DNA of 64,000 nt, from the IMG/VR virus record IMGVR_UViG_3300030098_005194, positions 1-64,000 of that record; one strand, written 5' to 3'. A program made the position numbers and the translations under genes. The notes below the pieces were generated by a model that was given only the letters and a program-made list of their open reading frames with translations, searched no databases and had not been told where the DNA came from. Source of the DNA: a virus. Shown one piece after another: positions 8,854 to 48,087 of the stretch (within the stretch, counting starts at the first letter, position 1; each line of letters begins with the position of its first letter).

Positions 8854-9469
8854 TGATGAAACAAAAGAAAAAGAAATGATAGAATGCTTTGATGGTGTTG
8901 AACGTGAAGTTACGCAAGAAGATTGGAGTGGTGTTGTGGTTGGGTTGGTCGATTTCAACAATTTCCACCCAGAGAAAGGCTTCGCTATGCGTCTGTTCAC
9001 TGATTGGAATAACGTGACGTACAATACCATAGAGTCTGTTATTGAGGGTAGTGGTAAGATTGTGAAGAAGCTTGTGTTAAGTGACAAGTGGAATGACTTT
9101 GTGAAGTATCACAGAGATGATGATTGCGTTGGAGAGTGGTACGAAATACATTATGATGGTGTTGTTGCGGAGGGAGAAAGACCCTACGGTTGTTCGGCAT
9201 CAACGTACAGTTGGAACCGTTGGGTTCAGTACCTACCAACGAGGTCGTGGACATTCCACCGACGTGCAGTGTGGAAGAAGAACGGGGCATCGAACAGCGG
9301 GAAGATAATAACCCGTGAAAGAGCCCGTGAGGAGTTTGAGCAGTATAACACACGCATTGAGATGAGTCCAAAGTACACTGGTGAGCAGAATGGTGGTAAC
9401 ATGAGAGAGAAGGCAGAGATAATGGAAGATAGAGCGAAGGAAGCAGGACTAGAGGTGATTATTGAATGA
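8846..9469 (+). CDS. hypothetical protein
   Basis: First gene after the promoter; GGAGG SD. Confidence 0.8.
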   Translation: MNDDETKEKEMIECFDGVEREVTQEDWSGVVVGLVDFNNFHPEKGFAMRLFTDWNNVTYNTIESVIEGSGKIVKKLVLSDKWNDFVKYHRDDDCVGEWYEIHYDGVVAEGERPYGCSASTYSWNRWVQYLPTRSWTFHRRAVWKKNGASNSGKIITRERAREEFEQYNTRIEMSPKYTGEQNGGNMREKAEIMEDRAKEAGLEVIIE

Positions 9470-11199
9470 GGACGAGAGCAGAAAGAAAAGGATATGTGAA
9501 TTGGGACAGGGCTTTGAGCGCAGGTATAGTGGACGAGAAGGTTGCCTTCACGGACAACCAGACCCTCACCGACCTGACGCTGGGCAACACGAAAGAAACA
9601 ATGGGTAAGTGCTACCCAATGGACTTGGCAGTTGCCTACACATTGGCTTCGGTTGGACCGGACAAGATGTTGAATGCGGAGGATATGGTGAATGAGTACA
9701 CAAGAACTGCGTACGTGATGATGAGTGGCAAGGTCGGATGGGGTGAAGTCCCCAATCCCGATGGGCCAGTCTGTGGTCATGACATGGTGAATGCATGGTT
9801 GTACAAGTGGCCAGAAGCTAGACTGGACAAGCACGGCAGGATTTACTTTGCCAGTAACCACACATACAGGAGTGACTTCACGTTCAGGCTGAACGACAAA
9901 TTTGACCATCACTTCATGAACCCCGTGACTCTGATACACTCTGATACCTTCAAGAAATTGAAGGAGAAGATTGAGTCGGAGCTTGACGTAAAAGAATGGG
10001 GTGTATCAGGTGCGAGTGGTCACTTCCACAGGTCGCAGACATTCGGTGTGTGCAACGAGGCGATGATACCTGATGGCGAGAAGTGCGCACATCACTCCCC
10101 CACCTATGAGACAATGTGGTTCTTGATTAAGGACAATGATGACTACCGCACAATATGGGACGCAGGAGCCGTAAAGCGGGGGTGGAACAACGACCAGTTG
10201 CAGAGTCAATTCGGTTGGGGTGAGAGAAAAAGAATTTCACCTACGCAAGTGACTAGGTTCAGCGAAGTGAGGAGAAGACTAGCCCGTGAAGCTCCCTTGA
10301 AGGGAGTCATCAAGGAAATCAAGAAGTCCCTCACTAGGATGGGCAACTGGTCTTCCGATAGGAGCCTGATTGTGAATGACGCTTGGGAGGACAGGGACAT
10401 CAGCATACCGATTGGTGTGGACGAGAATGGAGAAGAGATGTATGAGAAGGGAGTTAGGCGAGTACCCACTAGGAGGGGCAAGTACACCAAGTACGGTTGG
10501 AAGGACTGGGACTGGGTTGCGAAGGTAGATGTGCAGATACAGGAGTCCAACACTAAAGCTAGGAAGGAAGGTGAGACGCAGTGTTCGATATGCTTCAGCA
10601 AGAATGTGAAGAACGACCTTGGACAAAGTTACTGTGAGTGTGGCAAGGGTTGGAAGTACAATAGATACGAAGTTGAGCGTATGCACGGCCATGAGATTGT
10701 GAAGTTCAGGTGGGAGCCAATAGAGGAGCCCAGTGTGTTTGGGTTCAGTGACTTTGAGTACAGTGGACTCTTCTTCAAGAAGATAAGCGAGGCAACCAAT
10801 GTGAGAAACATGTTCCACAAGGCTCTGAACCACTTCAATGGCACACAGAACAAAAACAGGGTCTGGGACAAAGAGGAGGGCAATTCAATACCTGTCAAGT
10901 TGGACAAAGTTTCAGAAAGAATGGGCATCTCGGAGATAATTCCCAGTGTACCGTTCACTTTACCTTGGGATGCTGACCCGGAATACATAGTTACACCCAC
11001 TGAGATATTACACAAACTGTGCTTTGGTTCTCCTGAAGATTGGGATGAGGCGTTTGAGATAGCTGATGTGCCATCAGCGATGAAATATTCCGGTGGCATG
11101 AGAGTCAGAATGAAGGCCAAGAATGCTGGTTACGTTTCTATGTGGTTGCACAGACCGGATGAGAAGGTAGCTGTTGTTGAAGAGGAGGTGGTAGCATGA
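9466..11199 (+). CDS. hypothetical protein (577 aa) with an internal Zn-ribbon-like CSIC...CEC
   Basis: ATGA coupling; GAGGTGA SD; no family recognised. Confidence 0.8.
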   Translation: MRTRAERKGYVNWDRALSAGIVDEKVAFTDNQTLTDLTLGNTKETMGKCYPMDLAVAYTLASVGPDKMLNAEDMVNEYTRTAYVMMSGKVGWGEVPNPDGPVCGHDMVNAWLYKWPEARLDKHGRIYFASNHTYRSDFTFRLNDKFDHHFMNPVTLIHSDTFKKLKEKIESELDVKEWGVSGASGHFHRSQTFGVCNEAMIPDGEKCAHHSPTYETMWFLIKDNDDYRTIWDAGAVKRGWNNDQLQSQFGWGERKRISPTQVTRFSEVRRRLAREAPLKGVIKEIKKSLTRMGNWSSDRSLIVNDAWEDRDISIPIGVDENGEEMYEKGVRRVPTRRGKYTKYGWKDWDWVAKVDVQIQESNTKARKEGETQCSICFSKNVKNDLGQSYCECGKGWKYNRYEVERMHGHEIVKFRWEPIEEPSVFGFSDFEYSGLFFKKISEATNVRNMFHKALNHFNGTQNKNRVWDKEEGNSIPVKLDKVSERMGISEIIPSVPFTLPWDADPEYIVTPTEILHKLCFGSPEDWDEAFEIADVPSAMKYSGGMRVRMKAKNAGYVSMWLHRPDEKVAVVEEEVVA

Positions 11200-13610
11200 G
11201 CGACGAGTTCGATGCAACTGACTTGTTCAAGGAGATGCTAGCGGAAGAGGACATTGAAGAGACTGTTGCGGTTGTGACCGACAAGAGGAGAGAGGCGATA
11301 AAGTCACAGAAGGCTACTGCGATATTGGACCTGATTGACTTGAGCTACGATGACGATACGCCGCTGTCACAAGTCGGCTATCACATGCCCACTACTGTTC
11401 CCCTCCTGTTGGATGACGACTTCGATGTGGTGGACAAGGCGTTTGAGAAATGCACTGAGAGAAAATACACGGATGTTATTGAGGATACTGCTTTCCTCAG
11501 AACGTGCCCGCTCACACCAAGACACGGTGTGTTGGAATCCCGTGCGGTGAACGAGTATAACATACTCGATGTGTGGGAGAGGCTTGTTGGAGTGATGAAG
11601 AAAGAAGACCCAGAGGGTTGCTTCCTGATGCAAGAGATGCTGAATGCGTACTCTAGTGCAGTGTTGCATCCCAATCAGTACGCCACACTTGGTCTGGGTC
11701 ATGATGGCGTCACGAACGAGAGTGGCTTGCAGTTGAAGTTTCTCATGAGTGACACCGAGGACTATCTGGCGAAGCACAAGATTGCTACTAAGTTGGGTTA
11801 CAAAGACGGGTTTGAGATGGAGTTCGTTGGTACTGAGGGTCATGACTTGCACTCTCAGAATCCTGACCCCGCTAGTGCCTATGCGTATCTGACACAAATC
11901 AGGCAAGCACCACCACCGAGCCCAATCAGCTCCCCGTTCCAGTACATGAGTGGAGATACGCTTGTGACTGCTGACACTGAGGGCTCAATACCACAAGGCA
12001 GTGTGAATGTGAAGAAGGTGTGGGAACCAGAGGGATTGGTCGAAGTCGCTTGGTTGGAAGCCAACATCACGAAGGGGAATGTCCCGAAGGGTTTCGTCAT
12101 TGCGCATGCCAATGGGTCAATGTCCTCACACATAGCTGCCCACGCAAGGGCTCATGGAATACCGTACATTGTGAGTGACAGTGTTAGTGTTGGCGATGTC
12201 TGGGTAGAGGGCAGTGCAGGTTGGGTAGCATGTGAGGATGGGCTCCCCATTGAACCCAGTCCTTACAACCCATACTCCAATGAGTACGCAGTGGCGTTCA
12301 TGTTGGGATTGAAATTGAGCAGAAGGGGGTATATGAGACAACATGGTTGGTTCGCTCACTTCTTCCACCAGTGGTTGGGTAAGAACGCAAATGGAAAGAC
12401 GAGTGCTATGCTAGCCGGAGTATTCGTAGGTTGGGTTGTGAAAGCAACTCTCTCCGTGTGCCTTGCAGAGATGAGACACTCCGAGAGAATCTGTGATGAG
12501 GCTAGCGTGGACATAGTACCTACCCTGCATGCGTTAGTGAGTCCGAATGTCGGTGTGAAGCCAGAGTGGTTTGCTGGACCTTCCCCACAAGAGATAGAGT
12601 GGACCAAGGTTGAGATGGACATGAGGGACAGAAACCACTGGTATGCCAAGATGGAGTACCTTGACTTGACCTACGTTGAGATAAGAGAGGCTCTGAGATG
12701 GTGTGCTAAGATGTTCAAGGATGGCTGGAAAGGTGGTTACGGCGGAGAGAAGTGGATGACCTGCGCTAATTCTGCGGCTGACATTGCAGATGCAATAATA
12801 CAGTTCGTGAATCACAAGAAGGATACCGGCACATTTGACATTGAGACGTTGATGAGAATCACCAGTATGGCTAACGAGGCTGAGAACTGGCAACACAACA
12901 ACGCTGGTCTGTTCACCAAGTTCCTGAGCATGGAGGCATTCGACTACGCAACCAAGAACGAGAAGACAGGAAAGGGTTTGTTCAGCCACAGGCCATCGTC
13001 AATCAGACACATGTTCCGCACCTTCCAGTTGTACAACATGCTTGTTTCAGGCAATGGTTACATGCCTCACCCACAGAGGCCACAGAACGACTGGTTGGAG
13101 ATACTGAACTTCGCTAACAACCAAGCGAATAACACGTTCTTTCGTACAAATCTGATATGTCAGAGCGAGAAAGTACCGATGTCCATCAGGGACAAGGCAA
13201 ATCAGCTAGGCCCCGAAAGGTTGCATCACTCCAATAAGTACACTATGAATGAGGATAACTTTGTTCCATGTGGACATGAGGAGTGCGAGAAGTGCAATAA
13301 GGTGAACTTGAATGAAGATGACAGTATTGGCGTTGACACAAGCATGTTGCTATCGGACGACTCTCCATCTGTGTTCTTCGCATTAGATGATAGCAAGTCA
13401 TCCCCCATTACATATGATGTTTGCAGGAAGATACGCATGAAGGAGTTTGTATCAGTGGAGGAATTTACAATGGCATGGAATGGACTAGTGAACACCGACA
13501 GGAGCCACAAATTGCTCAGGTCCCTGTTGGCGAAGAAGCTGAAGAAACAGATTGCGTTTGACGAAGAATGGATAGAGAGTCTGGGTACACTGATGGGAGG
13601 TGATGAGTAA
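11196..13610 (+). CDS. PEP-synthase/dikinase-like phosphotransferase: ATP-grasp-like region, phospho-His swivel domain, unknown C-terminal domain
   Basis: GSMSSHIAAHARAHGIPYIV matches the PEP-utiliser mobile-domain signature (GGxTSHAAIxARExGIP). FLRTC, FLMQEM..SSAV, EMEF and YLTQIR fall in the same order as PPDK_N ATP-grasp motifs. Confidence 0.7.
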   Translation: MSDEFDATDLFKEMLAEEDIEETVAVVTDKRREAIKSQKATAILDLIDLSYDDDTPLSQVGYHMPTTVPLLLDDDFDVVDKAFEKCTERKYTDVIEDTAFLRTCPLTPRHGVLESRAVNEYNILDVWERLVGVMKKEDPEGCFLMQEMLNAYSSAVLHPNQYATLGLGHDGVTNESGLQLKFLMSDTEDYLAKHKIATKLGYKDGFEMEFVGTEGHDLHSQNPDPASAYAYLTQIRQAPPPSPISSPFQYMSGDTLVTADTEGSIPQGSVNVKKVWEPEGLVEVAWLEANITKGNVPKGFVIAHANGSMSSHIAAHARAHGIPYIVSDSVSVGDVWVEGSAGWVACEDGLPIEPSPYNPYSNEYAVAFMLGLKLSRRGYMRQHGWFAHFFHQWLGKNANGKTSAMLAGVFVGWVVKATLSVCLAEMRHSERICDEASVDIVPTLHALVSPNVGVKPEWFAGPSPQEIEWTKVEMDMRDRNHWYAKMEYLDLTYVEIREALRWCAKMFKDGWKGGYGGEKWMTCANSAADIADAIIQFVNHKKDTGTFDIETLMRITSMANEAENWQHNNAGLFTKFLSMEAFDYATKNEKTGKGLFSHRPSSIRHMFRTFQLYNMLVSGNGYMPHPQRPQNDWLEILNFANNQANNTFFRTNLICQSEKVPMSIRDKANQLGPERLHHSNKYTMNEDNFVPCGHEECEKCNKVNLNEDDSIGVDTSMLLSDDSPSVFFALDDSKSSPITYDVCRKIRMKEFVSVEEFTMAWNGLVNTDRSHKLLRSLLAKKLKKQIAFDEEWIESLGTLMGGDE

Positions 13611-14719
13611 TGCCTATGTGTCACACAGGTAATCCAGTTGTGTTTGTCGCTGATGGTATCACCGTTCACGGTGGAGGCAACATGAGGAATGGTGCTTGGC
13701 AGAACATGGATAGTGTGCCGGATGTTGCTATTGGACCAGAAGGTGTCTTGCAGACCCGCTCAATCAGGGACAGTGTTCCTATGGGATGGTCGTGTGCTGA
13801 TGCATTCAACAAGACCAAGCTACCGAAGTTCGTGGTCATCGACTGGCCTGATTACAGCGTACCCACCAATGCGGGCAAAGAGTTCTGGGTAGCCTTGGTC
13901 AATGACTTGAGGGAACATGATGTCAAAACAGTGTCATGCTCTTGTGCAGGTGGCCACGGTAGGACTGGTGTTCAGTTGTGCATACTAGCCCATCTGATGT
14001 TGGACGAGAAGCAGTGGGAGGACGTGGCTGGTTTGATTGACCACATCAGGTCGGTCTATTGCACACACGCAGTGGAGACGCACGAACAGCAATTGTACAT
14101 TGCAGATGTCACAGGTCTGGAGCCCGGTGAAAATCTCTTCACTGGGGTTGACAGTCACGGGTTCGGTGGCTTCGCATTTGATGATATGGATTACGACGAG
14201 GATGATGACGAGGCTTTGCTTGAGGAGTTGAGGAAGAAAGCGAGCGAGAAGAAAAAGAAAACCAAGAGCAACATGTACAAGGGGACATTTCAGAAGGGGA
14301 TGGTTCTGCTAGGTTGCCCAACGTGTGACAACAGCGACTGGCATGAGTCCCCCGTTGAGAAGGGCTCCGTGAGATGTGGGTGTGGCACGGAGATGACCAA
14401 CATTGAGAACACTTTGAAGGAGCCTACTGTCAAGTGCTTTGAGTGTGGAGACGAGTATCATCCCCTTGAGATGCACAATGGTGAATGTAAGTATTGCTAC
14501 ATGTCGGCCATCGGTGCTGGTGGTAGTATAGTGTCCAACGGTAAAACACCCAAGGACAGGAAGTTCTGGTGTGTGGACACTGGTAGGGAGTGGCCACTGG
14601 CATGTAGCATATTGGACAAGGCAGGTGTCGTTGTGAGCGTGACGCCGAAGAAGACGAAGAAGACGAAGAAGGAGAAAACGAAGATAACAGATTACATAGG
14701 AGGAATGAAAGATGAATGA
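13610..14719 (+). CDS. protein tyrosine/dual-specificity (CX5R) phosphatase with Cys-rich C-terminal region
   Basis: WPD loop (IDWPDYSVP), P-loop CAGGHGRTG, AVETHEQ Q-loop-like; C-terminal CPTC, CGC, CFEC and CKYC; 1-nt TAATG overlap with the upstream gene. Confidence 0.85.
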   Translation: MPMCHTGNPVVFVADGITVHGGGNMRNGAWQNMDSVPDVAIGPEGVLQTRSIRDSVPMGWSCADAFNKTKLPKFVVIDWPDYSVPTNAGKEFWVALVNDLREHDVKTVSCSCAGGHGRTGVQLCILAHLMLDEKQWEDVAGLIDHIRSVYCTHAVETHEQQLYIADVTGLEPGENLFTGVDSHGFGGFAFDDMDYDEDDDEALLEELRKKASEKKKKTKSNMYKGTFQKGMVLLGCPTCDNSDWHESPVEKGSVRCGCGTEMTNIENTLKEPTVKCFECGDEYHPLEMHNGECKYCYMSAIGAGGSIVSNGKTPKDRKFWCVDTGREWPLACSILDKAGVVVSVTPKKTKKTKKEKTKITDYIGGMKDE

Positions 14720-15194
14720 GATAGAGATAGGAAAGAATGGAAAGATGCAAGTGAAAGTGGAGTATGATAGCGGGGAGGCTGAGATGCACGTGCAATGCGT
14801 CACTAAAGAAGTGGTGATGGGTCGCAACAGACACTACGGTTACTCAGTGAAGATAAAGCCACATGAGCAATTCTTCCAATGGTTGCGTGAGCAGGATGCG
14901 GTGTTGAGGTCAGCAGCCTCTGACAGATTGTTGTACACACCATTTGAGTTGATTGAGTATCAGAATGGCGACATTCAGATGTACGTACCGGGCAAGCCAG
15001 CTAATCATCCACAGGGTGCTGTGTTGGATTTATCGCCCAGTGACGAACGTGTGAAGAACCTGATTGTGTTTGCTAAGAAGGCGGGGTTGATTAAGACGGT
15101 TGACCACCCTGAGAGATGGACGCCTTCAGCGACTATGACACTTCAAACTTGGTTTAACGGTGATGTATTTGACACGTTGGAGGAAGAGGAATGA
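14712..15194 (+). CDS. hypothetical protein
   Basis: Overlap-coupled ORF with GGAGG SD. Confidence 0.75.
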   Translation: MNEIEIGKNGKMQVKVEYDSGEAEMHVQCVTKEVVMGRNRHYGYSVKIKPHEQFFQWLREQDAVLRSAASDRLLYTPFELIEYQNGDIQMYVPGKPANHPQGAVLDLSPSDERVKNLIVFAKKAGLIKTVDHPERWTPSATMTLQTWFNGDVFDTLEEEE

Positions 15195-16762
15195 AAGATT
15201 ATGGAGAAATAAACTGCGAAACATGCGATAAGACATTCACGAAATACAGAGTCAATGCTAAATTTTGTTGCCGTGAGTGCAAACTCGCAAAGAAAAGAGC
15301 AGACTATCGTAAGGCTAACCCCCCTAGAAAGCCGAAATTGGTTAGGATAGGGGAGGCAAAGGGTCGCACACAAGACCCAGAGGACCAGAGGGACATAATG
15401 AGAAAACTCAGGGTAGACATAGGATTTCCTGCCTCTGACACTCCATCGACGTGGCGCACTGAGGACTTGTACAAAGTCAAATCCAAAGAGTGGAACAAAG
15501 TCTTCAATCACACACACAGTGATTACTACTTGGGTTTCCTCGATATGTTCGCCATATTGTTCCCCAATGAGTTTAGTGAGATAGAACTATGGAGAGTGGA
15601 TAACAACAACAAGGTTGTGCAATTCACCAAAGCTAATGGTAAGCCTAACTACAAAGTGGTGTATCCCGTTCTAAGGACTTTCTGGAATGCATGGTCTGAA
15701 CACTTGGGTAGAACACCTACCTTGGATGATGTGTATGGAATTTGGGCTAGTTGGTTGTATGGTGAGGTGCGTGATACTTTCATGCCTGACTTTCCATACT
15801 CAGCACTCTTCAATGTGACTACTCCAACGAGTATGGCCCCTTATCATAGGGAAGATGCAGGGGACAGAGCCTATGACTTCGCTAGGGATTTGCACAAGTT
15901 CTTCCTACGTAGGGATGAGAGTGGTAGATTCACGAAAGATGACTGGGACGATATGATGTATATGATGGGTCGGGATAAGTTCGATACATCTAATGCACTA
16001 CTATGGAATGAGAATATGTCAAAGAGATGGATGACCGAGATAGCCCTACCTTGGCTTGGAATAAACCCGACTGGTTTTCCACATGATTCCGATAATGAAA
16101 CCATCCAAAAGTGCTATGCAACATCTCAGGAGTTTCTAGCAGACATACCAAAGTACGAGTCCTTCTGTAAAGTTACTTTTGGTATTGATAATGCAGGGTA
16201 TGGAATGGGTCGCATATGTATGCACCTATGGCCTGAATACGATTGGGATGACTTGCAGTTCGGTGCAGTGTTGATGGGGCAACAGAGAGTGACTAACTAT
16301 CTCAGAAACGCTTTCAGCACAGTCCACCATGAGTATAGAATGCCAATGAGAAATGGAAAGATTGCACGGTACAATGATACCAAGCGACCACTTAGGATAG
16401 ACTCCTTCATTGAAGATGGTGGTCTAGAAACAAGCATTGCATGTGAAGTCCAAGGTGGTCATCACTACGTGGGGTACAACACATCAGTGGATGAGAGAGA
16501 TTATCGTGTGGTGTTAGAGAGGGTGCAATGGTGCGATGCACAGAAGAAGAGGAAAGTAAAGAGGCAGGGACATCGTATGGTGTATATACCAATATCAGAT
16601 TATTGTCACCCTGTAAAGGGAGTGCATGGTAAGTTACCAAAGTGGAACTGGAAGTTGACGACCGCAGAAAACCCGAAGAAAGGTGCAGTTGGCCTTGCGG
16701 AGTTGTTTGAGATGCAAGGCGCAAAGGATGCGGCGAGAAGGATAAGGAGTATGACAGCATGA
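15191..16762 (+). CDS. Zn-finger plus PD-(D/E)xK (Vsr/DUF559-like) endonuclease, possible homing endonuclease
   Basis: N-terminal CETC...KFCCREC; C-terminal LRIDSFI...IACEVQGGHHY...DAQK. Confidence 0.6.
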   Translation: MKDYGEINCETCDKTFTKYRVNAKFCCRECKLAKKRADYRKANPPRKPKLVRIGEAKGRTQDPEDQRDIMRKLRVDIGFPASDTPSTWRTEDLYKVKSKEWNKVFNHTHSDYYLGFLDMFAILFPNEFSEIELWRVDNNNKVVQFTKANGKPNYKVVYPVLRTFWNAWSEHLGRTPTLDDVYGIWASWLYGEVRDTFMPDFPYSALFNVTTPTSMAPYHREDAGDRAYDFARDLHKFFLRRDESGRFTKDDWDDMMYMMGRDKFDTSNALLWNENMSKRWMTEIALPWLGINPTGFPHDSDNETIQKCYATSQEFLADIPKYESFCKVTFGIDNAGYGMGRICMHLWPEYDWDDLQFGAVLMGQQRVTNYLRNAFSTVHHEYRMPMRNGKIARYNDTKRPLRIDSFIEDGGLETSIACEVQGGHHYVGYNTSVDERDYRVVLERVQWCDAQKKRKVKRQGHRMVYIPISDYCHPVKGVHGKLPKWNWKLTTAENPKKGAVGLAELFEMQGAKDAARRIRSMTA

Positions 16763-17007
16763 GAGCAGATGATGTAAAATTGGATTTTGATGGAAGCATA
16801 GTGATTGGAGACACGATACACCCCATGGGTAGTACGATGTGGCAGATTGATGGGATTCCGTTTACTCCAGTAGAAGCAACTATAAACACATGTAAATGTC
16901 GAGAGCCTACGATTGTGTTATTTTGTGAGGAAAGGAACATTGTTGAGATATGTAAAAACTGCAATGAGATAAGGCTATACGAGCCGGAGAGTGAAAGAAA
17001 TGAGTGA
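16759..17007 (+). CDS. small Zn-ribbon-like protein
   Basis: CKC...CKNC; ATGA coupling. Confidence 0.65.
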   Translation: MRADDVKLDFDGSIVIGDTIHPMGSTMWQIDGIPFTPVEATINTCKCREPTIVLFCEERNIVEICKNCNEIRLYEPESERNE

Positions 17008-17719
17008 AAACAGAGATGGAATAATAAATTGGATGAATGAACAGAACAAGAACTGGGCTGAACAGCACTTTGCTAACATGCCCATGAATGGTGTTTGGGC
17101 TGGAGGTCTTGGCTTTGTGATGATGAAAAAATCAGATAGTCAGATTTCTCTAGTCTGTGCGATAGATGACCCTATAGTAAGAACAAATCTAGCAGGTCTA
17201 CAAGTTCTATTGTACGACTTGGGTTACAGCTACGAAGACTTGGACGCCTCTTGGTCAGACCCACCCCAGAGTGAGGAGGAGATGAGAGAGTTTGAGAGAG
17301 TGACTGAGCAATTGGTCATCAATAGTTGGAAGTGCGAGTGTGGTTATCCGATGATGGAGATTAACGTGAGTGATTGCTTTGCTAGGTACATAGAGACGGA
17401 AGAGGTACTGTTGGACAGTGGAGACACTGAAGAGGTCGAGATTTGGACTTACCCCCTGATTTGCACGTGTGGTAGAAGATTGGATGTGAATCCAGATGAC
17501 TTCATCAGAATGCATGGACAGGCAAAGATGCACACACATGACACACCAGATGGAGATGTGATACAAGCATACACCAGATACGAGATATGCAACTGCACTG
17601 ATGAGGAAAGGGAGAAGCTCTTCGTCGTTGGTGACTATTGGCCAGACGAGAGCAACAAACTACCGCCATGGATGAGAGGACTAGTCTGTGGCATCGCAGA
17701 TGGAGACGAAGAGGAATGA
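17000..17719 (+). CDS. hypothetical protein with CxC pairs
   Basis: CECG and CTCG; overlap-coupled. Confidence 0.75.
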   Translation: MSENRDGIINWMNEQNKNWAEQHFANMPMNGVWAGGLGFVMMKKSDSQISLVCAIDDPIVRTNLAGLQVLLYDLGYSYEDLDASWSDPPQSEEEMREFERVTEQLVINSWKCECGYPMMEINVSDCFARYIETEEVLLDSGDTEEVEIWTYPLICTCGRRLDVNPDDFIRMHGQAKMHTHDTPDGDVIQAYTRYEICNCTDEEREKLFVVGDYWPDESNKLPPWMRGLVCGIADGDEEE

Positions 17720-17988
17720 AGAACAAGTATAGATACAACAAATGTGTCTCTTGTAAGAAGAGAAGGAACCTAGTCTGGGACCCTGACCACAAGAGATGCT
17801 ACGATTGCTGGATGAAATACAGAGAGGAGCAGAAGAGATGTGAAGTGGAGACATGTGATAATGTTCTTGAGGATGGGGAAGGCACTACTATCTATCTCTT
17901 CAGCGATTGGGGTGATGTTGTTTGTGATGACTGCAATGAACAGTACAAGAACGGCGAATGGATACCAGACGTGGATGTGAGACATTGA
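17716..17988 (+). CDS. small double Zn-finger protein
   Basis: CVSC..CYDC and CEVETC..CDDC; ATGA overlap start. Confidence 0.7.
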   Translation: MKNKYRYNKCVSCKKRRNLVWDPDHKRCYDCWMKYREEQKRCEVETCDNVLEDGEGTTIYLFSDWGDVVCDDCNEQYKNGEWIPDVDVRH

Positions 17989-18113
17989 TAGCTAATTGTG
18001 GTGTGTGTGGTAAGAAAGCAAAAATTTGGACCACTCTTGATGATTATGATAAGAACGGCAGACACACACTAAGCACATTAGTATGTAAGGATTGTACATT
18101 GGAGGCGTTATGA
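17985..18113 (+). CDS. 42-aa Zn-finger microprotein (TTG start; not in the ORF track)
   Basis: MIANCGVCGKKAKIWTTLDDYDKNGRHTLSTLVCKDCTLEAL; TTGA and ATGA overlaps at its two ends. Confidence 0.65.
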   Translation: MIANCGVCGKKAKIWTTLDDYDKNGRHTLSTLVCKDCTLEAL

Positions 18114-18385
18114 TGAAGGAGATTTGGAGAACAGTTAGCATGGAAAGAAAGTGGAAGGACGGCAAGGGACATGTCGTTTTGAGTGTGCAACCATACTCAG
18201 GCAGAGTCTGGGTGGACATGAGAATGCACAACATGCATAGAGAGGAGGGCCCAACGCATACGAGAAATGGCTTCCGACTCTCTATAGAGCAAGCAGAGGA
18301 AATGGTGAATGCCATGCAAGTGGCAATCACGAAAGGAAAAGAGGAAAGGGAAAGAAATGAAAGGAAACGAGAGGAAAGCAGCTAG
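18110..18385 (+). CDS. PC4/YdbC-like ssDNA-binding protein
   Basis: VVLSVQPYSGRVWVDMR...PTHTRNGFRLSIEQ matches the PC4 pattern (Y.G...vDiR....PT.KG..L); GGAGG SD. Confidence 0.7.
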   Translation: MMKEIWRTVSMERKWKDGKGHVVLSVQPYSGRVWVDMRMHNMHREEGPTHTRNGFRLSIEQAEEMVNAMQVAITKGKEERERNERKREESS

Positions 18386-18626
18386 CATACCACACGCTGA
18401 GTATGAGATACTGAGGGTGCTGAAGAGCGAAGTTGATTTGAGTGAGCTAAAAGAAAGAATGACGAAGATACAGGTTAAGAACGAGAGGGACAAGAAGAGA
18501 CAAGTAACTCTCAATAGGAGGTTTGACAAGGCCGCTGAGAATCTGTGGGTTGTATTTAACAACATGATGGAGATTCGTAGAAAGAAGCTCCCAGAGAGTC
18601 ATCCCAGATACGAGGCGAGCGAATGA
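18357..18626 (+). CDS. hypothetical basic helical protein
   Basis: Overlapping coupled ORF. Confidence 0.7.
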   Translation: MKGNERKAASIPHAEYEILRVLKSEVDLSELKERMTKIQVKNERDKKRQVTLNRRFDKAAENLWVVFNNMMEIRRKKLPESHPRYEASE

Positions 18627-18862
18627 TGCAGCACATTGACATGGGAAATGGTCGTTTGTGTGGAAGCAAAAGCAGGACAGGTTACATGAGTGATGAGGAG
18701 TTTAGTGCATTGCCAAAGTGCCCTGCTTGTTTCAGTTTGGTCGAGGTGAAAATCGCTACACCAGAACCAACTCCTGCATTCAGGGATGTAGAATATAAAG
18801 CGAACGTAAACGTGGTTGGAAAACTAGTTTTGGACGACTATGCAAAGAAGGTGATAGAATGA
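18623..18862 (+). CDS. small His/Cys protein
   Basis: H...C...CPAC; ATGA coupling. Confidence 0.65.
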   Translation: MMQHIDMGNGRLCGSKSRTGYMSDEEFSALPKCPACFSLVEVKIATPEPTPAFRDVEYKANVNVVGKLVLDDYAKKVIE

Positions 18863-19455
18863 AAGAAGCAAAAAATATGGAATGGACAGATGGTGTCGGT
18901 AAGGCACTAAGCACTCTGGGGAGTGTGATAAGCAAGCAAGAGAAAGCAAGGCATGACAAGGGAGAGGATTACTTCTCTGACCCCATGCTGTACGTACAGG
19001 ACCTGAACACTGGGACATCAGTGCTTCTGGTCCCCGATGACAATGAAGGTGGCAAGACCAAGGGTAGGGGCTACAGGCGTTGTAGCTCAGTGAGGCAAAG
19101 GATAGGCACTAAGGTCCCACCTAAGTTACAGGTGACCGTACTATTGGACATGGTTGTTGGTATGTTAGTGCCAAAAGAAGAAGACAGAATGGGTCCACTG
19201 GGTGAAGCCGCTTACAACAGGATAGCAAATGCGATGATTGAGGCACAGAGTGCGGAGAACTGGTTGAAAGAAAACGGCAAGCATGCTAGTAAGGTCAATG
19301 AAATAATTGAGAAGCTACAGGATATGACTTGGACAGAAAGGAGCGGTGATACACTTCTCAACATGAAGGCATTGAAGATGGAGGAAGCTGTGATGAACGA
19401 AAAAGAAATATTAGAGGCAGTGGGTAGACCACTGCAAAAGGAGGTGACTCAATGA
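18859..19455 (+). CDS. hypothetical protein
   Basis: ATGA coupling; GGTGA SD. Confidence 0.75.
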   Translation: MKEAKNMEWTDGVGKALSTLGSVISKQEKARHDKGEDYFSDPMLYVQDLNTGTSVLLVPDDNEGGKTKGRGYRRCSSVRQRIGTKVPPKLQVTVLLDMVVGMLVPKEEDRMGPLGEAAYNRIANAMIEAQSAENWLKENGKHASKVNEIIEKLQDMTWTERSGDTLLNMKALKMEEAVMNEKEILEAVGRPLQKEVTQ

Positions 19456-20129
19456 ATCGACCGCCATTAGAAGCGTGGACTTTTCTCAAGGAAGAGGTTA
19501 GGCTTAGAGGTTCTACTGGGGCGGCTCTCCGCACCTTACCAAGTGGCAGGAGAGTCGTTGTCAAGAGAGGTGGTAGAGCGGGTGGTGACCCTGCAGCACA
19601 CATCATGAACGAGTATGACATGAATCGCTACCTGAATGAGTTGGGCATAGGTGTGCCCTCGGCTGAGATGGTAGTTGAGGATGGAAGACCTACCATGCTG
19701 ACTGACTTTGAGGAAGGCGCTAGAGTGCCAACGGAATCTGATAGATTTAGGTTGCGTGAAGACTTCGTACCACAAGTGGCAATATCCAACTGGGACGTTC
19801 TAGGACGGGACCTTGACAATGTACTCATTAGACCTGATGGCACTCCTAGCTATGTTGATGTTGGCGGTGCAGGTCCATACAGGGCAATGGGAGCGCCAAA
19901 GGGTGACAAGTTCACTGGAGATGTCGGCACTGATATAGCTGGTATGCAATACATGGCTCCCTACACGGACATGGTGTATGGTGACATGACTGATGAGGAG
20001 ATGGGTCGCTCCTACGACAAAGCAGGGGGTGTCGATGCGATGCAAGCTGCTACCCAAGTTCTCAGGGATGCACAGACACGGAACATAATACGACAGAGAG
20101 CGGAAGACCTAGCAAGGAGGGTTGCCTGA
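19452..20129 (+). CDS. atypical kinase, HipA / PI3-PI4-kinase-like fold
   Basis: GSTG loop, VVKR (Lys), MNEY (Glu), LGIGVP, NWDVLGRDLDNV (catalytic D...N), VDVGG (DFG-like). Confidence 0.65.
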   Translation: MNRPPLEAWTFLKEEVRLRGSTGAALRTLPSGRRVVVKRGGRAGGDPAAHIMNEYDMNRYLNELGIGVPSAEMVVEDGRPTMLTDFEEGARVPTESDRFRLREDFVPQVAISNWDVLGRDLDNVLIRPDGTPSYVDVGGAGPYRAMGAPKGDKFTGDVGTDIAGMQYMAPYTDMVYGDMTDEEMGRSYDKAGGVDAMQAATQVLRDAQTRNIIRQRAEDLARRVA

Positions 20130-46346: not shown

Positions 46347-46693
46347 TATTTCACCTCTATCAATAATTGGATTTTTATCTCATTCTCAGTTGTTTTGAGA
46401 ATTGGAGCGAAGACGTGTCTGCTTACTGGTGTGAAGCCACTGGTGTCCCTCATCTGAACATAGACTTCCTTGATGGTTTCATCGTAGCTTTCTGTTGTGG
46501 GTAGTGTGGCTTCCACTAACAGACTATTGCTATCAAGTATCTTGACGGTGGGGGTGAGAGTCACAGGGGCTGGTTTTCCGGGTGAGCCATCGCTACTAGT
46601 TGCAGGTGTACCATCGAAACCTACTTTGACTTCGTTTATGTTATTGGCGATAGTCTCCACCAAGAGCCTCTTCAAATAATCATTAACTGCCAT
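46346..46693 (-). CDS. small virion/tail protein
   Basis: 1-nt overlaps with both neighbours. Confidence 0.65.
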   Translation of the reverse strand: MAVNDYLKRLLVETIANNINEVKVGFDGTPATSSDGSPGKPAPVTLTPTVKILDSNSLLVEATLPTTESYDETIKEVYVQMRDTSGFTPVSRHVFAPILKTTENEIKIQLLIEVK

Positions 46694-48087
46694 TAGAACA
46701 CCAAAAACCTCTCATCTGCTTCTTTTTTACCGAGTCCAATCGTTTTTGCACTACCGCCTATACTAACTCTGTTTGCGTTACGGCCTATTAGAAGAGGTGT
46801 ACCGCTAACATCTGTCACAGTGAGGAGAAGGGTGGTCTTTATATCAATTTCATCAAAGAAACCGTAGTCAACTTGCTTTATTTGCTCATTTAGGTCATCG
46901 CTGGTTATCTCTTCAGCTATCGCTTCGTCCTCAAACACGGACCTGATTGCTGTATCAGCACCTGATTCTAGTGTAAGGAAAGTAAAGTCGCTTAGTTGTG
47001 AGGCTAACATGTGGCTAGCTGACATGACGACATATTTTCTGTTGCCGTAACTAACAATCTCTCCCGGTCTTATGAACCAAGATTTTGGATGGCCTTTTGT
47101 TTCCATTCTCGTTGCTAGGAGTCTGTTTGCCTTGAGCATCTGTCTTGCTACGGACCTTGACTCCTGTTCTGACATTATAGAATTATCAAAGTGCGGCATG
47201 GGTTCCTCTGCAATTTCGATATTGAACCTGCCTTGTTGAGTAGCGTCATTGAGAGTAACAGATGAATTGTCATTCAAGGCGATTTGACGACCGACCACTG
47301 TAACTCTGTTTGCACTGTCATCCACTGTGTTGGTATTTTCACTGTCCGTTCTCAAACTCGCTGATAGGAAATGTGGTTTTCTAGAATAGTTGAAAGGTAT
47401 GAACAATAAGTTGCCATGCATGTCGTAATCTAAGATTCTATTATCCCTTCTTCCCAAAGTCGTGAGAGCTGTCATCAGGCTGGCATTGTTGAAATTATGA
47501 GCGAAGAAAGTCTTGCTGTGTTTTTGCCTCTGTGTTGTTGCGTTAGCCACGGACAAAGGCTCGCCTATTGAAAAAGACGTTACTGTGCCATCTAGCTCCT
47601 TGCCGATTTCCAAAGCCAAATCAGTTGTTCTAAATCCTACGTTTATTGGCTGACCCATTTTCACCTCATCAGAAAAACCAAATGTTGACAGATTTTCATT
47701 TTTCATATTTGGCAAATGAACTCTTATTTTTTTATCCAAAACCTCTATTTTTTGTCTTAAAAGACGTTTTTTATTATCATTAGCATCATACAAAATTTCT
47801 GATGAAGAGTCATTTCCATATGGCGTAAAAATATTTTCTTCAAAGGTATGACCCGGAGTTTTTGTGTGTGACACAAGCAAGGAGGACTCCTCTTCCTCTA
47901 TCCTGTAACTGCCTTCTTTTGATACTCTGTAGGAAGTTGTGGAAATTGTGACTTTTGGTTTTTCAGATTGTTGGGACTCGTATTTTCCGTAGTGCAGAGC
48001 GTTGTCAACAAAGACTGGTTTTCTGATATCTACCATAACCTCAGTTAGCGATTCGGAAAAAGCACCCTTGGTCGATTGTATCCTCAT
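46693..48087 (-). CDS. tail/baseplate hub-like protein (tentative)
   Basis: Position in the tail operon; C-terminal IRPGEIVSY..KYVV.SASH pattern. Confidence 0.5.
   Translation of the reverse strand: MRIQSTKGAFSESLTEVMVDIRKPVFVDNALHYGKYESQQSEKPKVTISTTSYRVSKEGSYRIEEEESSLLVSHTKTPGHTFEENIFTPYGNDSSSEILYDANDNKKRLLRQKIEVLDKKIRVHLPNMKNENLSTFGFSDEVKMGQPINVGFRTTDLALEIGKELDGTVTSFSIGEPLSVANATTQRQKHSKTFFAHNFNNASLMTALTTLGRRDNRILDYDMHGNLLFIPFNYSRKPHFLSASLRTDSENTNTVDDSANRVTVVGRQIALNDNSSVTLNDATQQGRFNIEIAEEPMPHFDNSIMSEQESRSVARQMLKANRLLATRMETKGHPKSWFIRPGEIVSYGNRKYVVMSASHMLASQLSDFTFLTLESGADTAIRSVFEDEAIAEEITSDDLNEQIKQVDYGFFDEIDIKTTLLLTVTDVSGTPLLIGRNANRVSIGGSAKTIGLGKKEADERFLVF

What the first reader, a model, noticed from the sequence alone, without database searches (positions are those of the whole stretch)
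11196..14719. Candidate viral phospho-switch: a dikinase-type 'writer' coupled to a WPD-loop CX5R phosphatase 'eraser'
Seen: the 804-aa protein carries a phospho-His swivel signature (SSH312IAAHARAHGIP), preceded by motifs in ATP-grasp order (FLRT, LMQEM..SSAV, EMEF, YLTQIR). It is followed by about 450 aa with no pyruvate-binding TIM-barrel motifs. Its stop overlaps the start (TAATG) of a phosphatase with W79-P-D, C112AGGHGR118 and a Q-loop-like motif, then an acidic/basic linker and four Cys pairs. Known: ATP-grasp plus His-swivel enzymes (PEP synthase, PPDK, rifampin phosphotransferase, glucan water dikinase) pass the ATP beta-phosphate via His to a substrate chosen by a third domain. CX5R enzymes dephosphorylate proteins, lipids, glucans or RNA ends. 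Inference: a co-expressed, reversible phosphorylation module acting on an unknown host or viral target (protein, nucleotide/nucleic-acid end or lipid), possibly for host takeover or anti-defence. I know of no description of such a pair in archaeal viruses.
Basis: partly seen in the sequence, partly recalled or inferred. Interest (0 to 1): 0.88.

Follow-up and report, generated by a model that had tools for sequence, protein, structure and literature searches.

The report
Viral dikinase–phosphatase phosphotransfer gene module
An archaeal-virus genome carries an ATP-driven, histidine-shuttling phosphate-adding enzyme next to a cysteine phosphatase; the same uncharacterised pair occurs in many bacterial and archaeal viruses, where its cultured-phage version is mislabelled as a sugar-metabolism gene.

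Summary
ORF A (11196-13610, 804 aa) folds confidently as a PPDK/rifampin-phosphotransferase-type ATP-grasp (about 25-245), a phosphohistidine swivel domain (about 250-350, His312 invariant) and an all-helical domain (about 358-625) with no relative found. ORF B (13610-14719) is a catalytically complete PTP-fold CX5R phosphatase. Its ATG shares one base with A's stop (TAATG).

The two genes are adjacent in 32/32 magrovirus-type loci, 59/62 further viral loci and 6/6 bacterial-genome loci. They are the only genes shared across those contexts.

In cultured Vibrio, Stenotrophomonas, Rhizobium and Rhodobacter phages the same parts are separate genes: a "PPDK" without a pyruvate barrel, one or two B-type phosphatases, and a stand-alone helical-domain protein (hhalign 95.5%). 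ORF A is therefore a fusion form of a widespread three-part system that the literature reads as a glycolytic auxiliary gene.

The substrate is unknown. A reversible "writer/eraser" switch is neither shown nor favoured. I favour a transient phosphate handle on a nucleotide or nucleic-acid substrate, at low confidence; two carrier phages have heavily modified DNA.

This scan found a related fused form before on other DNA (e1-768891).

Verdict: real, widespread, uncharacterised and experimentally tractable.

The parts
11196..13610 (+). ORF A, 804 aa: fused dikinase head plus helical acceptor-type domain plus lineage-specific tail
   Evidence: ORF. Family of 784 representative clusters at E<=1e-3. 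AF2 model pLDDT 86.8, pTM 0.82.
11265..11930 (+). Residues about 24-245: PPDK_N-type ATP-grasp nucleotide-binding domain. Invariant K39, R102, E207/E209, Q234/R236.
   Evidence: Foldseek top hits are PPDK 1dik (5.6e-5), RPH 5hv1 and PEPS 2ols. VIA Z 13.4/11.2/10.8, against <=9.5 for generic ATP-grasps. Invariant columns. No Pfam PPDK_N hit at sequence level.
11940..12245 (+). Residues about 249-350: phosphohistidine swivel domain with G307-S-x-x-S311-H312 and R318
   Evidence: Pfam PEP-utilizers E 0.0084 at residues 304-327, below the cutoff, matched by 10 of 35 members. H312 invariant in A1, A2 and A4. The VIA alignments to RPH and PPDK extend to residues 348-356 and cover their His domains. 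hhalign aligns this segment to the TSH motif of the canonical phage PPDK-like protein.
12267..13070 (+). Residues about 358-625: conserved all-helical domain, the third component. Invariant or near-invariant E425, R427, R479, W511, G516, G517, W520, N560, H567, N568, K575.
   Evidence: Conservation. Domain model pLDDT 88, pTM 0.90. No fold relative: Foldseek nothing at E<=1e-3, best VIA-wide Z 7.5 to generic helical bundles. It exists as a stand-alone protein in cultured phages: hhalign 95.5%, E 1.5e-8; HMM 1e-10 to 1e-12.
13071..13607 (+). Residues about 626-804: magrovirus-lineage extension with a small Cys cluster (C692, C697, C700)
   Evidence: Absent from the 541-aa (L033) and 569-aa (podovirus) homologs. 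The Cys residues are nearly invariant within the ~800-aa group.
13610..14719 (+). ORF B, 369 aa: PTP-fold cysteine phosphatase (residues 1-175), then an acidic/Lys-rich linker and two Zn-ribbon-like Cys pairs
   Evidence: Pfam Y_phosphatase E 1.9e-5, 24.8 bits against a cutoff of 20.9. PDB phmmer: LAR 3e-7, also SsoPTP. Invariant D81, C112, R118, E156, Q160. The tail is absent from short homologs.
13592..13612 (+). A/B junction: GGAGGTGA Shine-Dalgarno-like sequence inside A's end, and the TAATG stop/start overlap
   Evidence: Sequence read. Overlapping or abutting junctions in all 32 magrovirus-type loci, ATGA in 20 of them.
14712..15194 (+). 160-aa gene that follows B in magrovirus-type loci only. 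A lineage-specific companion, not part of the universal module.
   Evidence: tblastn in 30 of 32 loci with downstream DNA. Clustering puts it in 39 loci, none of them diverse. Its HMM finds nothing convincing outside the lineage.
9466..11199 (+). 577-aa gene conserved near the pair in magrovirus-type loci but at varying positions. Not part of the universal module.
   Evidence: It lies upstream in L001, L010, L011, L014, L028 and L031 and about 3 kb downstream elsewhere. Only a weak Mom-family hit, E 0.053. No PDB or NCBIfam hit.

Best explanation
ORF A and ORF B are a fused form of a three-part viral phosphoryl-transfer system.

Step 1 (inferred from fold and invariant residues). The ATP-grasp head of A binds ATP and pyrophosphorylates or phosphorylates His312 on the swivel domain, as PPDK, PEP synthase and rifampin phosphotransferase do.

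Step 2 (inferred from domain order, and from the fact that this domain is a separate gene in split systems). The swivel domain carries the phosphate to the helical domain (about 358-625). There a pocket lined by E425, R427, R479, W511, GG516-517, H567, N568 and K575 holds an acceptor, which becomes phosphorylated.

Step 3 (enzyme class shown by sequence; role inferred). The co-translated PTP-fold phosphatase B hydrolyses a phosphomonoester in the same pathway. In this reading the phosphate is a transient activating or directing handle, or is trimmed from the product. It is not a regulatory mark that is switched on and off.

The module occurs in viruses of both archaea and bacteria, and it sits among replication and packaging genes. 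Two cultured carriers have heavily modified DNA. I therefore think the acceptor is most likely a nucleotide or a nucleic-acid-linked group used to modify or protect the viral genome.

Sub-confidences:
- Dikinase-type phospho-His enzyme: about 0.85.
- Active Cys phosphatase: about 0.9.
- The two (three) parts work together: about 0.9.
- Sequential handle logic rather than a switch: about 0.5.
- Nucleotide or nucleic-acid acceptor: about 0.3.
For: Fold:
- AF2 model pLDDT 86.8, pTM 0.82.
- Foldseek's top solved hits are PPDK, RPH and PEP synthase.
- VIA Z 13.4 (RPH, 279 aligned residues, model 13-348) and Z 11.2 (PPDK, model 23-356). Generic ATP-grasps score <=9.5 and align only to about 36-245.

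Catalytic residues:
- H312 and the set K39/R102/E209/Q234/R236 are invariant in three independent alignments.
- The motif order [D/E]xEF[T/V] ... QxR ... SH matches the consensus of the canonical phage PPDK-like proteins.

Phosphatase:
- Pfam hit above its cutoff, and PDB PTP hits.
- D81/C112/R118/Q160 invariant in 59 partners.

Linkage:
- B is adjacent in 32/32 loci, 59/62 loci and 6/6 loci.
- A and B are the only families shared between magrovirus-type and diverse loci.
- The pair is also present in a 41-kb freshwater podovirus.
- The stop/start overlap with an internal SD.

Third component:
- The stand-alone helical protein in Vibrio phage J26 aligns at 95.5% probability, E 1.5e-8, on all three signature motifs.
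- It lies beside a canonical PPDK_N + PEP-utilizers protein that lacks a TIM barrel, and beside B-type phosphatases.
- It occurs in 41 cultured phage records.

DNA link (circumstantial):
- DLP3 DNA resists 15 of 15 restriction enzymes (PMC7326821). DLP5 DNA is cut by only 4 of 36 (PMC5834331).
- The module neighbours DNA polymerase, terminase, PD-(D/E)XK nucleases and replicative ATPases.

Precedent for the handle logic (my own knowledge, not tested here): CreHI dikinase with CreD phosphohydrolase in p-cresol catabolism. Other dikinase-plus-phosphatase operons were noted earlier in this scan.
Against: - No acceptor has been identified, and the helical domain has no relative of known function.
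- A's ATP-grasp is not detectable by sequence: no PPDK_N Pfam hit, no PDB hit even with a profile, and hhalign to split-type PPDK-like proteins is not significant outside the His segment. The head assignment therefore rests on a predicted structure plus motifs.
- The window's own genome encodes no thymidylate-synthase-type hydroxymethylase, so the known hydroxymethyl-pyrimidine hypermodification route is not available there.
- No third gene is consistently linked in the diverse loci.
- The modified DNA of DLP3 and DLP5 could be due to their glycosyltransferase and sugar genes instead.
- B's best solved-structure matches are classical protein-tyrosine phosphatases, which fits a protein substrate just as well.
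Confidence: 0.4

Rival explanations
1. Reversible protein phospho-switch. A phosphorylates a host or viral protein through His312. B removes the same phosphate, giving temporal control of a takeover or anti-defence target.
For: B has the WPD loop, CX5R and Q-loop of classical protein-tyrosine phosphatases, and its best PDB matches are LAR/PTPRF and SsoPTP. Swivel-His domains can phosphorylate proteins, as PTS Enzyme I does with HPr (my own knowledge). The helical bundle could be a protein-docking or HPt-like module.
Against: The two genes are co-translated from overlapping codons in nearly every genome. Both activities would then be present together, and acting on a single site they would only burn ATP. 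No dikinase-family enzyme driven by an ATP-grasp head is known to phosphorylate proteins. The target would have to be shared by Poseidoniales archaea and diverse bacteria. In split systems there are two B-type phosphatases per dikinase, which is odd for a simple eraser.
Confidence: 0.12
2. Nucleic-acid end-healing module that works like T4 Pnkp. A phosphorylates 5'-OH ends and B removes 3'- or 2',3'-cyclic phosphates (or 5' phosphates). This would repair RNA or DNA cut by host anticodon nucleases or HEPN-type defences, and a host or viral ligase would then seal the break.
For: A kinase plus a phosphatase acting on different ends is the one established reason for viruses to keep both activities together (my own knowledge of T4 Pnkp). 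B and its homologs match Pfam PTP-SAK best; that family is named after the 'Swiss Army Knife' RNA-repair proteins. One diverse locus has a T4-type RNA ligase and a HAD_SAK_2 RNA-repair domain next to the pair. B's magrovirus tail has Lys-rich linkers and Zn ribbons. The substrate would be universal across both host domains.
Against: The own genome has no Rnl2-type ligase or RtcB. A ligase neighbour was seen in only 1 of 46 distinct diverse loci. No dikinase is known to act on polynucleotide ends. The helical domain shows no known nucleic-acid-binding fold. The window's own B scores below the PTP-SAK cutoff (19.1 against 27).
Confidence: 0.15
3. Small-molecule dikinase with a dedicated phosphatase (RPH/CreHI/phenylphosphate-synthase type). 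A phosphorylates a metabolite, a signalling molecule or a host-made anti-viral compound. B recycles or completes the conversion.
For: The closest solved structures include rifampin phosphotransferase (Z 13.4) and HpeI (Z 8.0). The Atlas feature search on the helical domain points weakly to 'Rph_4th' clusters (score 0.87, below the tool's trust level). Earlier scan notes report RPH-like split dikinases with partner phosphatases in CPR bacteria (not tested here).
Against: RPH does not appear among the fold matches of the helical domain or in profile searches of the PDB. A single small molecule common to marine archaea, vibrios, acidobacteria and rhizobia would be needed. The module lies in replication and packaging regions rather than with metabolic genes.
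Confidence: 0.15
4. A genuine pyruvate phosphate dikinase or PEP synthase, acting as an auxiliary metabolic gene that boosts host glycolysis or gluconeogenesis. This is the published reading for the cultured-phage homologs, and the phosphatase is read as a phosphorus-scavenging AMG.
For: Annotation and discussion in PMC12038007, PMC9229204 and PMC10671443. PMC11706807 cites a 'phosphatase' AMG in group A magroviruses. The N-terminal two domains do share the PPDK fold.
Against: Neither A nor the cultured-phage 'PPDK' has the PEP/pyruvate-binding TIM barrel. For A there is no PEP-utilizers_C hit and the C-terminal half is all-helical. For J26 ORF98 only PPDK_N and PEP-utilizers are found, followed by an unassigned ~190-aa tail. 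The obligate partners, a PTP and the helical domain, have no role in pyruvate/PEP interconversion. A cytoplasmic CX5R PTP fold is not a phosphate-scavenging enzyme type.
Confidence: 0.03

Closest known systems
Pyruvate phosphate dikinase / PEP synthase (PPDK_N ATP-grasp, PEP-utilizers swivel His, PEP-utilizers_C TIM barrel)
   Same: The domain order is the same: ATP-grasp, then swivel His, then a third domain. VIA Z is 11.2 to 1dik over model residues 23-356 and 10.8 to 2ols. The G-S-x-x-S-H...R swivel motif is shared. The invariant K, R, ExE and QxR residues come in the order of PPDK's ATP-site residues (the PPDK residue roles are from my own knowledge).
   Different: There is no TIM-barrel PEP/pyruvate domain. 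In its place is an about 270-residue helical domain with its own invariant polar residues. The head is not recognisable by sequence. A PTP phosphatase is an obligate neighbour.
Rifampin phosphotransferase (RPH-Lm, 5HV1/5HV3/5FBS) and RPH-like small-molecule dikinases (HpeHI, CreHI, PpsAB)
   Same: It is the best structural match: Z 13.4, 279 aligned residues, covering both the ATP-grasp and the His domain. It uses water-dikinase-type chemistry on a non-pyruvate acceptor held by a dedicated domain. Some members work in pathways that include a separate phosphohydrolase (my own knowledge).
   Different: RPH's domain order is ATP-grasp, acceptor domain, then His. Here the His domain precedes the acceptor-type domain. 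The helical domain does not match RPH's rifampin-binding domain in fold or profile searches; there is only a sub-threshold Atlas lead.
'Pyruvate phosphate dikinase' plus 'tyrosine phosphatase' cluster of cultured siphoviruses (Vibrio phages J26/Virtus/VHS1/SIO-2, Stenotrophomonas DLP3/DLP5, Rhizobium RHph_Y1_11, Rhodobacter RcZahn)
   Same: It has the same three parts: a dikinase head, a helical domain with E-x-RH, GG-x-x-W and HNNG-x-x-FNK (hhalign 95.5%, E 1.5e-8), and B-family phosphatases (HMM E from 1.3e-8 for J26 down to 1e-23 for RcZahn/RHph). It has the same position among replication and packaging genes.
   Different: It is split into separate genes, with a canonical, Pfam-recognisable PPDK_N head carrying its own ~190-aa tail. 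It often has two phosphatases and small intervening ORFs. Here the head is highly divergent and is fused to the helical domain.
Glucan water dikinase with SEX4/LSF2/laforin glucan phosphatases
   Same: To my knowledge it is the only well-studied natural pairing of a swivel-His dikinase with a CX5R-type phosphatase on one substrate class.
   Different: Pfam finds no carbohydrate-binding module in either A or B. GWD has a different domain order. Those plant genes are not operonic.
T4 polynucleotide kinase-phosphatase (Pnkp)
   Same: A virus-encoded kinase and phosphatase kept together. It offers a rationale in which the two act on different ends of one broken substrate.
   Different: Pnkp uses a P-loop kinase and a HAD/DxD phosphatase in a single polypeptide. 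Neither fold is present here.

Membership tests
PPDK/PEPS/RPH-type swivel-His dikinases | PPDK_N-type ATP-grasp nucleotide-binding domain | tested here: met
   Met by predicted structure: Foldseek's top hits are PPDK, RPH and PEPS, and VIA gives Z 13.4, 11.2 and 10.8 over residues about 13-356. At sequence level there is no PPDK_N Pfam hit and hhalign to canonical phage PPDK-like proteins is not significant.
PPDK/PEPS/RPH-type swivel-His dikinases | Mobile phosphohistidine domain with a conserved catalytic His in a G-G/S-x-x-S/T-H motif | tested here: met
   H312 and S311 are invariant in A1; H312 stays invariant in A2, and the equivalent His in the separate A4 alignment of distant homologs. 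The Pfam PEP-utilizers hit is weak, E 0.0084 and below the cutoff, and is matched by 10 of 35 members. The structural alignments extend through the His domains of RPH and PPDK.
PPDK/PEPS/RPH-type swivel-His dikinases | Autophosphorylation on His from the beta-phosphate of ATP | not testable with these tools
   This needs [beta-32P]ATP labelling and an H312A control.
Pyruvate phosphate dikinase / PEP synthase proper | C-terminal PEP/pyruvate-binding TIM barrel (PEP-utilizers_C) | tested here: not met
   There is no Pfam hit at E<=1. Residues 358-804 are all-helical in two confident models. The fold searches return no TIM barrel.
Rifampin phosphotransferase family | RPH-type acceptor-binding domain | tested here: inconclusive
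   The Atlas feature search gives Rph_4th clusters at 0.87, below the tool's 0.9 trust level. RPH is not listed among the VIA-wide or Foldseek matches of the helical domain, and the profile search of the PDB finds nothing.
Protein-tyrosine-phosphatase superfamily (CX5R cysteine phosphatases) | P-loop C-X5-R-(S/T) with a nucleophilic Cys | tested here: met
   C112-AGGHG-R118-T119. C112, R118 and G120 are invariant and T119 is present in at least 90% of 59 partners. Pfam Y_phosphatase scores 24.8 bits against a cutoff of 20.9.
Protein-tyrosine-phosphatase superfamily (CX5R cysteine phosphatases) | General-acid Asp on a WPD-type loop, and a Q-loop glutamine | tested here: met
   D81 and Q160 are invariant, and W79 is present in at least 90%. 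phmmer aligns WPD and the Q-region to LAR.
PTP-SAK clade (PF22784) | Score above the family's gathering cutoff | tested here: inconclusive
   The window's B scores 19.1 bits against a cutoff of 27. Several homologs and the J26 phosphatase exceed the cutoff, at 39.5 and 43.6 bits.
Thymidine hypermodification pathway (5-HMUDK kinase plus aGPT-Pplase) | P-loop 5-hmdU DNA kinase, aGPT-Pplase domains and a hydroxymethylase of the thymidylate-synthase family in the genome | tested here: not met
   A, B and their neighbours give no such Pfam hits. The 97%-complete own genome has no Thymidylat_synt match, and the positive controls rang.
Glucan water dikinase / glucan phosphatase pair | Carbohydrate-binding modules (CBM45/CBM20/CBM48) on the kinase or the phosphatase | tested here: not met
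   There is no CBM hit in A or B at E<=1.
Known anti-phage defence systems (PADLOC-DB) | Match to any defence-system protein model | tested here: not met
   None for A, B, the J26 helical protein, the J26 PPDK-like protein or the two neighbours.

The most novel reading that the evidence does not exclude
The three-part module (dikinase head, helical transferase-like domain, PTP phosphatase) is a previously unrecognised pathway for covalent modification or protection of viral genomes. It would use phosphohistidine dikinase chemistry to activate a nucleotide or DNA-linked group. It would be shared by tailed viruses of archaea and bacteria, and it would explain the restriction-resistant DNA of carriers such as DLP3 and DLP5.
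Probability: 0.2. Interest if true: 0.9.

Novelty: new variant of a known kind. Interest (0 to 1): 0.72.

Why it matters
The module is widespread. It has 784 representative clusters at 50% identity. It is present in abundant marine archaeal viruses, in many uncultured phages including a 448-kb contig, in prophage-like regions of several bacterial phyla, and in 41 cultured phage records.

No function has been tested. Its cultured-phage version is routinely reported as a glycolytic 'auxiliary metabolic gene'. The domain content contradicts that reading, so ecological inferences built on it are probably wrong.

Two results make the system directly testable in tractable Vibrio, Stenotrophomonas and Rhodobacter phages. 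The unassigned half of the protein is recognised here as an autonomous, conserved third component. The phosphatase is shown to be an obligate partner.

If the acceptor turns out to be DNA or a nucleotide, this would add a new enzymatic logic to viral genome modification. If it is a protein or an RNA end, it would be a new kind of host-takeover or repair system.

Tried and rejected
- Complex prediction on full-length A plus B residues 1-185 gave no verdict (score 0.01). I use it neither for nor against binding.
Contexts of distant homologs came from the search for related loci and search_dna_similar instead.
- The look-up of sequencing runs listed no RNA holder.
- PDB sequence searches with A alone, with profile A1 and with the C-domain profile A3 gave nothing meaningful.
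- Pfam scans of seven long (1,100-1,400 aa) homologs found no fused domain. Long B homologs showed only PTP and Zn-ribbon hits.
- tblastn of A and of two distant homologs against cultured phages found only four near-identical podoviruses. The link to cultured siphoviruses came only through the helical-domain HMM.
- hhalign of the A family against split-type PPDK-like proteins aligned only the His segment, and not significantly. J26's own 190-aa tail does not match the helical domain.
It worked with A8.
- The own genome has no Thymidylat_synt, Rnl2-type RNA ligase or RtcB. The Rnl1 search is uninformative because no control rang.
- PADLOC gave nothing.
- The 160-aa and 577-aa neighbours have no PDB or NCBIfam match and are lineage-specific.
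- The Atlas 'Rph_4th' lead (0.87) could not be confirmed.
- The VIA-wide matches of the helical domain to GPCR-like bundles (Z <=7.5) are at the noise level for helical folds. The domain is not membrane-like in J26, where the maximum Kyte-Doolittle 19-residue window is 1.19.
- I considered regulation of A by B through a PDRP-like Thr two residues before the His, and set it aside because that position is variable.
- The Burroughs & Aravind RNA-repair paper could not be read because the id was not held.

Full report
**What is there.** The window is part of a 102-kb virus record that is 97% complete. It encodes a family B DNA polymerase, an SNF2 helicase and a thermosome-type chaperonin. Philosof et al. 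describe that combination for group A magroviruses of Marine Group II archaea (PMC5434244). The junction reads GGGAGGTGATGAGTAATG. The stop and start codons share one base, and a Shine-Dalgarno-like GGAGGTGA lies inside A's last codons.

**ORF B is a phosphatase.**
- Pfam Y_phosphatase scores above its gathering cutoff (E 1.9e-5, 24.8 against 20.9 bits).
- phmmer finds LAR/PTPRF (3e-7) and the archaeal SsoPTP, with WPD, CX5R and the Q-region aligned.
- Across 59 partners from very different viruses, D81, C112, R118, E156 and Q160 are invariant. W79, H116, T119, R147 and C151 are nearly so.
- The family-specific motif R147-x3-C151-x4-E156-x3-Q160 recurs in all of them.
- The Lys-rich linker and Zn-ribbon tail occur only in some lineages.

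**ORF A is a dikinase-type enzyme with an unassigned third domain.**
- Sequence methods barely see it. There is only a sub-threshold PEP-utilizers hit at residues 304-327 (E 0.0084), and no PDB hit even with a profile.
- With a 61-sequence alignment, AlphaFold2 gives a confident model (pLDDT 86.8, pTM 0.82).
- Foldseek's five hits at E<=0.001 are four PPDK entries and rifampin phosphotransferase.
- VIA-align gives Z 13.4 to RPH (279 residues aligned, model 13-348), Z 11.2 to PPDK (model 23-356 on chain 2-515) and Z 10.8 to PEP synthase. Generic ATP-grasp enzymes reach at most 9.5 and cover only residues about 36-245.
- His312 is invariant in an alignment of close relatives, one of mixed relatives and one of distant relatives. 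So are K39, R102, E209, Q234 and R236.
- The order of those residues and their local motifs (ExEF[VT], QxR, SH) mirror the consensus of canonical phage PPDK-like proteins.
- Residues 358-804 are all-helical. Only residues about 358-625 are conserved family-wide, because the homologs in L033 and in a podovirus are 541 and 569 aa long.
- Folded alone (pLDDT 88, pTM 0.90), this domain has no Foldseek match at E<=0.001. Its best VIA-wide Z is 7.5, to generic helical bundles, which is below the noise level quoted for helical folds.
- It carries its own invariant polar set: E425, R427, R479, W511, G516, G517, H567, N568 and K575.

**The pairing is not an accident of synteny.**
- The A family is large: 784 representative clusters at E<=1e-3.
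- In 34 magrovirus-type loci, B lies directly downstream in all 32 that have downstream DNA. The junctions overlap or abut, and 20 of them are ATGA. The 577-aa neighbour, in contrast, changes position.
- A profile of the distant ~600-aa class yielded 63 further loci. A B-family phosphatase is adjacent in 59 of the 62 that are not truncated. It is usually downstream and overlapping. It is upstream in three loci and on the other strand in one, and it is absent from one virus type, L048-L050.
- Clustering all genes from 97 loci shows that A and B are the only families shared between the magrovirus-type and the diverse loci.
- The pair is also present in a 41-kb circular freshwater podovirus.
- It is present in six of six bacterial-genome loci with downstream DNA: Acidobacteriota, Chloroflexota, Salinarimonas and Altimarinota. 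A seventh locus, from a Thioalkalivibrio MAG, is cut before the downstream gene.

**The same system exists in split form in cultured phages.**
- Papers on Vibrio and Stenotrophomonas phages mention a short 'pyruvate phosphate dikinase' near a 'tyrosine phosphatase'.
- In Vibrio phage vB_VneS_J26, the 691-aa 'PPDK' has strong PPDK_N (1e-45) and PEP-utilizers (2e-19) hits but no TIM barrel.
- Its neighbouring phosphatase is B-like: blastp 7e-6 including the R...H..ET..Q motif, and HMM 1e-8.
- The next gene, annotated 'putative membrane protein', is a stand-alone homolog of A's helical domain. hhalign gives 95.5% probability and E 1.5e-8, aligning E-x-RH, GG-x-x-W and HNNG-x-x-FNK.
- That protein occurs in 41 cultured phage records: Vibrio 34, Stenotrophomonas 4, Rhizobium 2 and Rhodobacter 1.
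- In RcZahn and RHph_Y1_11 the order is terminase, 'PPDK', two small ORFs, PTP, helical protein, a second PTP, then DNA polymerase.
- ORF A is therefore a fusion of a very divergent dikinase head with the helical component.
- The published reading as a glycolytic auxiliary gene does not fit the domain content.
- An earlier follow-up in this scan (e1-768891) reported a single protein in another genome that fuses a dikinase, a CX5R phosphatase and an undescribed ~260-residue domain. It noted the same parts as separate phage genes. My result agrees and adds the archaeal-virus form.

**How it probably works.**
- *Shown:* the folds, the invariant catalytic residues, the obligate linkage and the autonomy of the helical domain.
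- *Inferred:* ATP loads His312, the swivel carries the phosphate to the helical domain's pocket, an acceptor is phosphorylated there, and B hydrolyses a phosphomonoester in the same pathway.
- I favour a sequential 'phosphate handle' logic over a reversible switch. The genes are co-translated, so opposing activities on a single site would be futile. Precedents for dikinases with partner phosphatases are also sequential (CreHI with CreD, from my own knowledge; other operons noted).
- The acceptor is unknown.
- *Arguments for a nucleotide or nucleic-acid acceptor:* the module occurs in viruses of both domains. It lies among polymerase, terminase, nuclease and replicative ATPase genes. Magrovirus B has a Lys-rich, Zn-ribbon tail. 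DLP3 and DLP5 have heavily modified DNA (PMC7326821; PMC5834331).
- *Arguments against:* the own genome has no hydroxymethylase of the thymidylate-synthase family. There is no consistent third gene. DLP3 and DLP5 also carry sugar-transfer genes that could explain their modified DNA.
- *End healing, in the manner of T4 Pnkp:* this is attractive because B belongs to the PTP-SAK neighbourhood and one locus carries an RNA ligase plus a HAD_SAK_2 domain. But ligases are otherwise absent.
- *A protein target:* this remains possible, because B looks like a classical PTP.

**What did not help.** The complex prediction gave no verdict. No RNA run was listed. PADLOC found nothing. The magrovirus-specific neighbours stayed unassigned.

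**Verdict.** The thing itself is a new variant within the swivel-His dikinase kind. It has a new acceptor-type domain and an obligate PTP partner. It is widespread in viruses of two domains, mis-annotated in the literature, and ready for experiment in cultured phages.

Noticed in passing
window 48084-63914 (- strand): A single open reading frame of 5,276 aa, running on to the window's end as 5,304 aa. It is an exceptionally large gene for a ~100-kb archaeal virus. It lies next to three 548-850-aa genes on the same strand.
   Followed up: no
window 1-38000 versus 38000-64000: GC skew is strongly positive (about +0.2) up to about 38 kb. It then drops to near zero or negative, at the point where gene orientation switches from + to -.
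   Followed up: no
L100 (Vibrio phage vB_VneS_J26, PP534163) 14495-19505; also DLP3 gp141: Several annotations in this cluster look wrong. The 'pyruvate phosphate dikinase' lacks the pyruvate/PEP barrel. The 'putative membrane protein' is the helical-domain homolog and is not hydrophobic. 'Pyruvate decarboxylase' and 'CsrA' have no Pfam support. In DLP3, the protein at the corresponding position is named 'thymidylate synthase' yet carries a PTP conserved domain according to its own paper; this may explain why PHROG 17568, which matches B at 9.5e-10, is labelled thymidylate synthase.
   Followed up: partly
L108 (Rhodobacter phage RcZahn) 4301-6764; L109 (Rhizobium phage RHph_Y1_11) 4294-7188: The split systems carry two B-family phosphatases flanking the helical-domain gene, whereas the fused systems have one. 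In addition, the 102-aa RcZahn gp7 weakly matches the N-terminal part of the B domain (E 3e-4).
   Followed up: partly
L048-L050 (IMG/VR contigs 3300036958_000687, 3300025882_000396, 3300010351_001658): One virus type has a ~513-aa A homolog with no B-family phosphatase within the fetched flanks. It is the only clear exception to the pairing.
   Followed up: no
L060 (IMGVR_UViG_3300009545_000018, 447,763 bp): The pair also occurs on a jumbo-phage-sized contig.
   Followed up: no
window 9466-11199 and 14712-15194: A 577-aa protein (with a Cys-rich segment and a weak Mom-family hit, E 0.053) and a 160-aa protein accompany the pair throughout magrovirus-type genomes and nowhere else. The 577-aa gene changes position relative to the pair.
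   Followed up: partly
window 13610-13640 (B residues 4-12): B's N-terminus has a conserved C4-H5-x-G7-N8 motif. C4 is invariant among the 30 aligned sequences (magrovirus-type plus two short outliers), and the motif remains the consensus in the 59-sequence set. Its role is unexplained and it lies away from the CX5R site.
   Followed up: no
window 46693-48087 (- strand): A 463-aa protein with a sub-threshold Imm33-like domain hit (E 3.2e-5, 24.2 against 27 bits).
   Followed up: no
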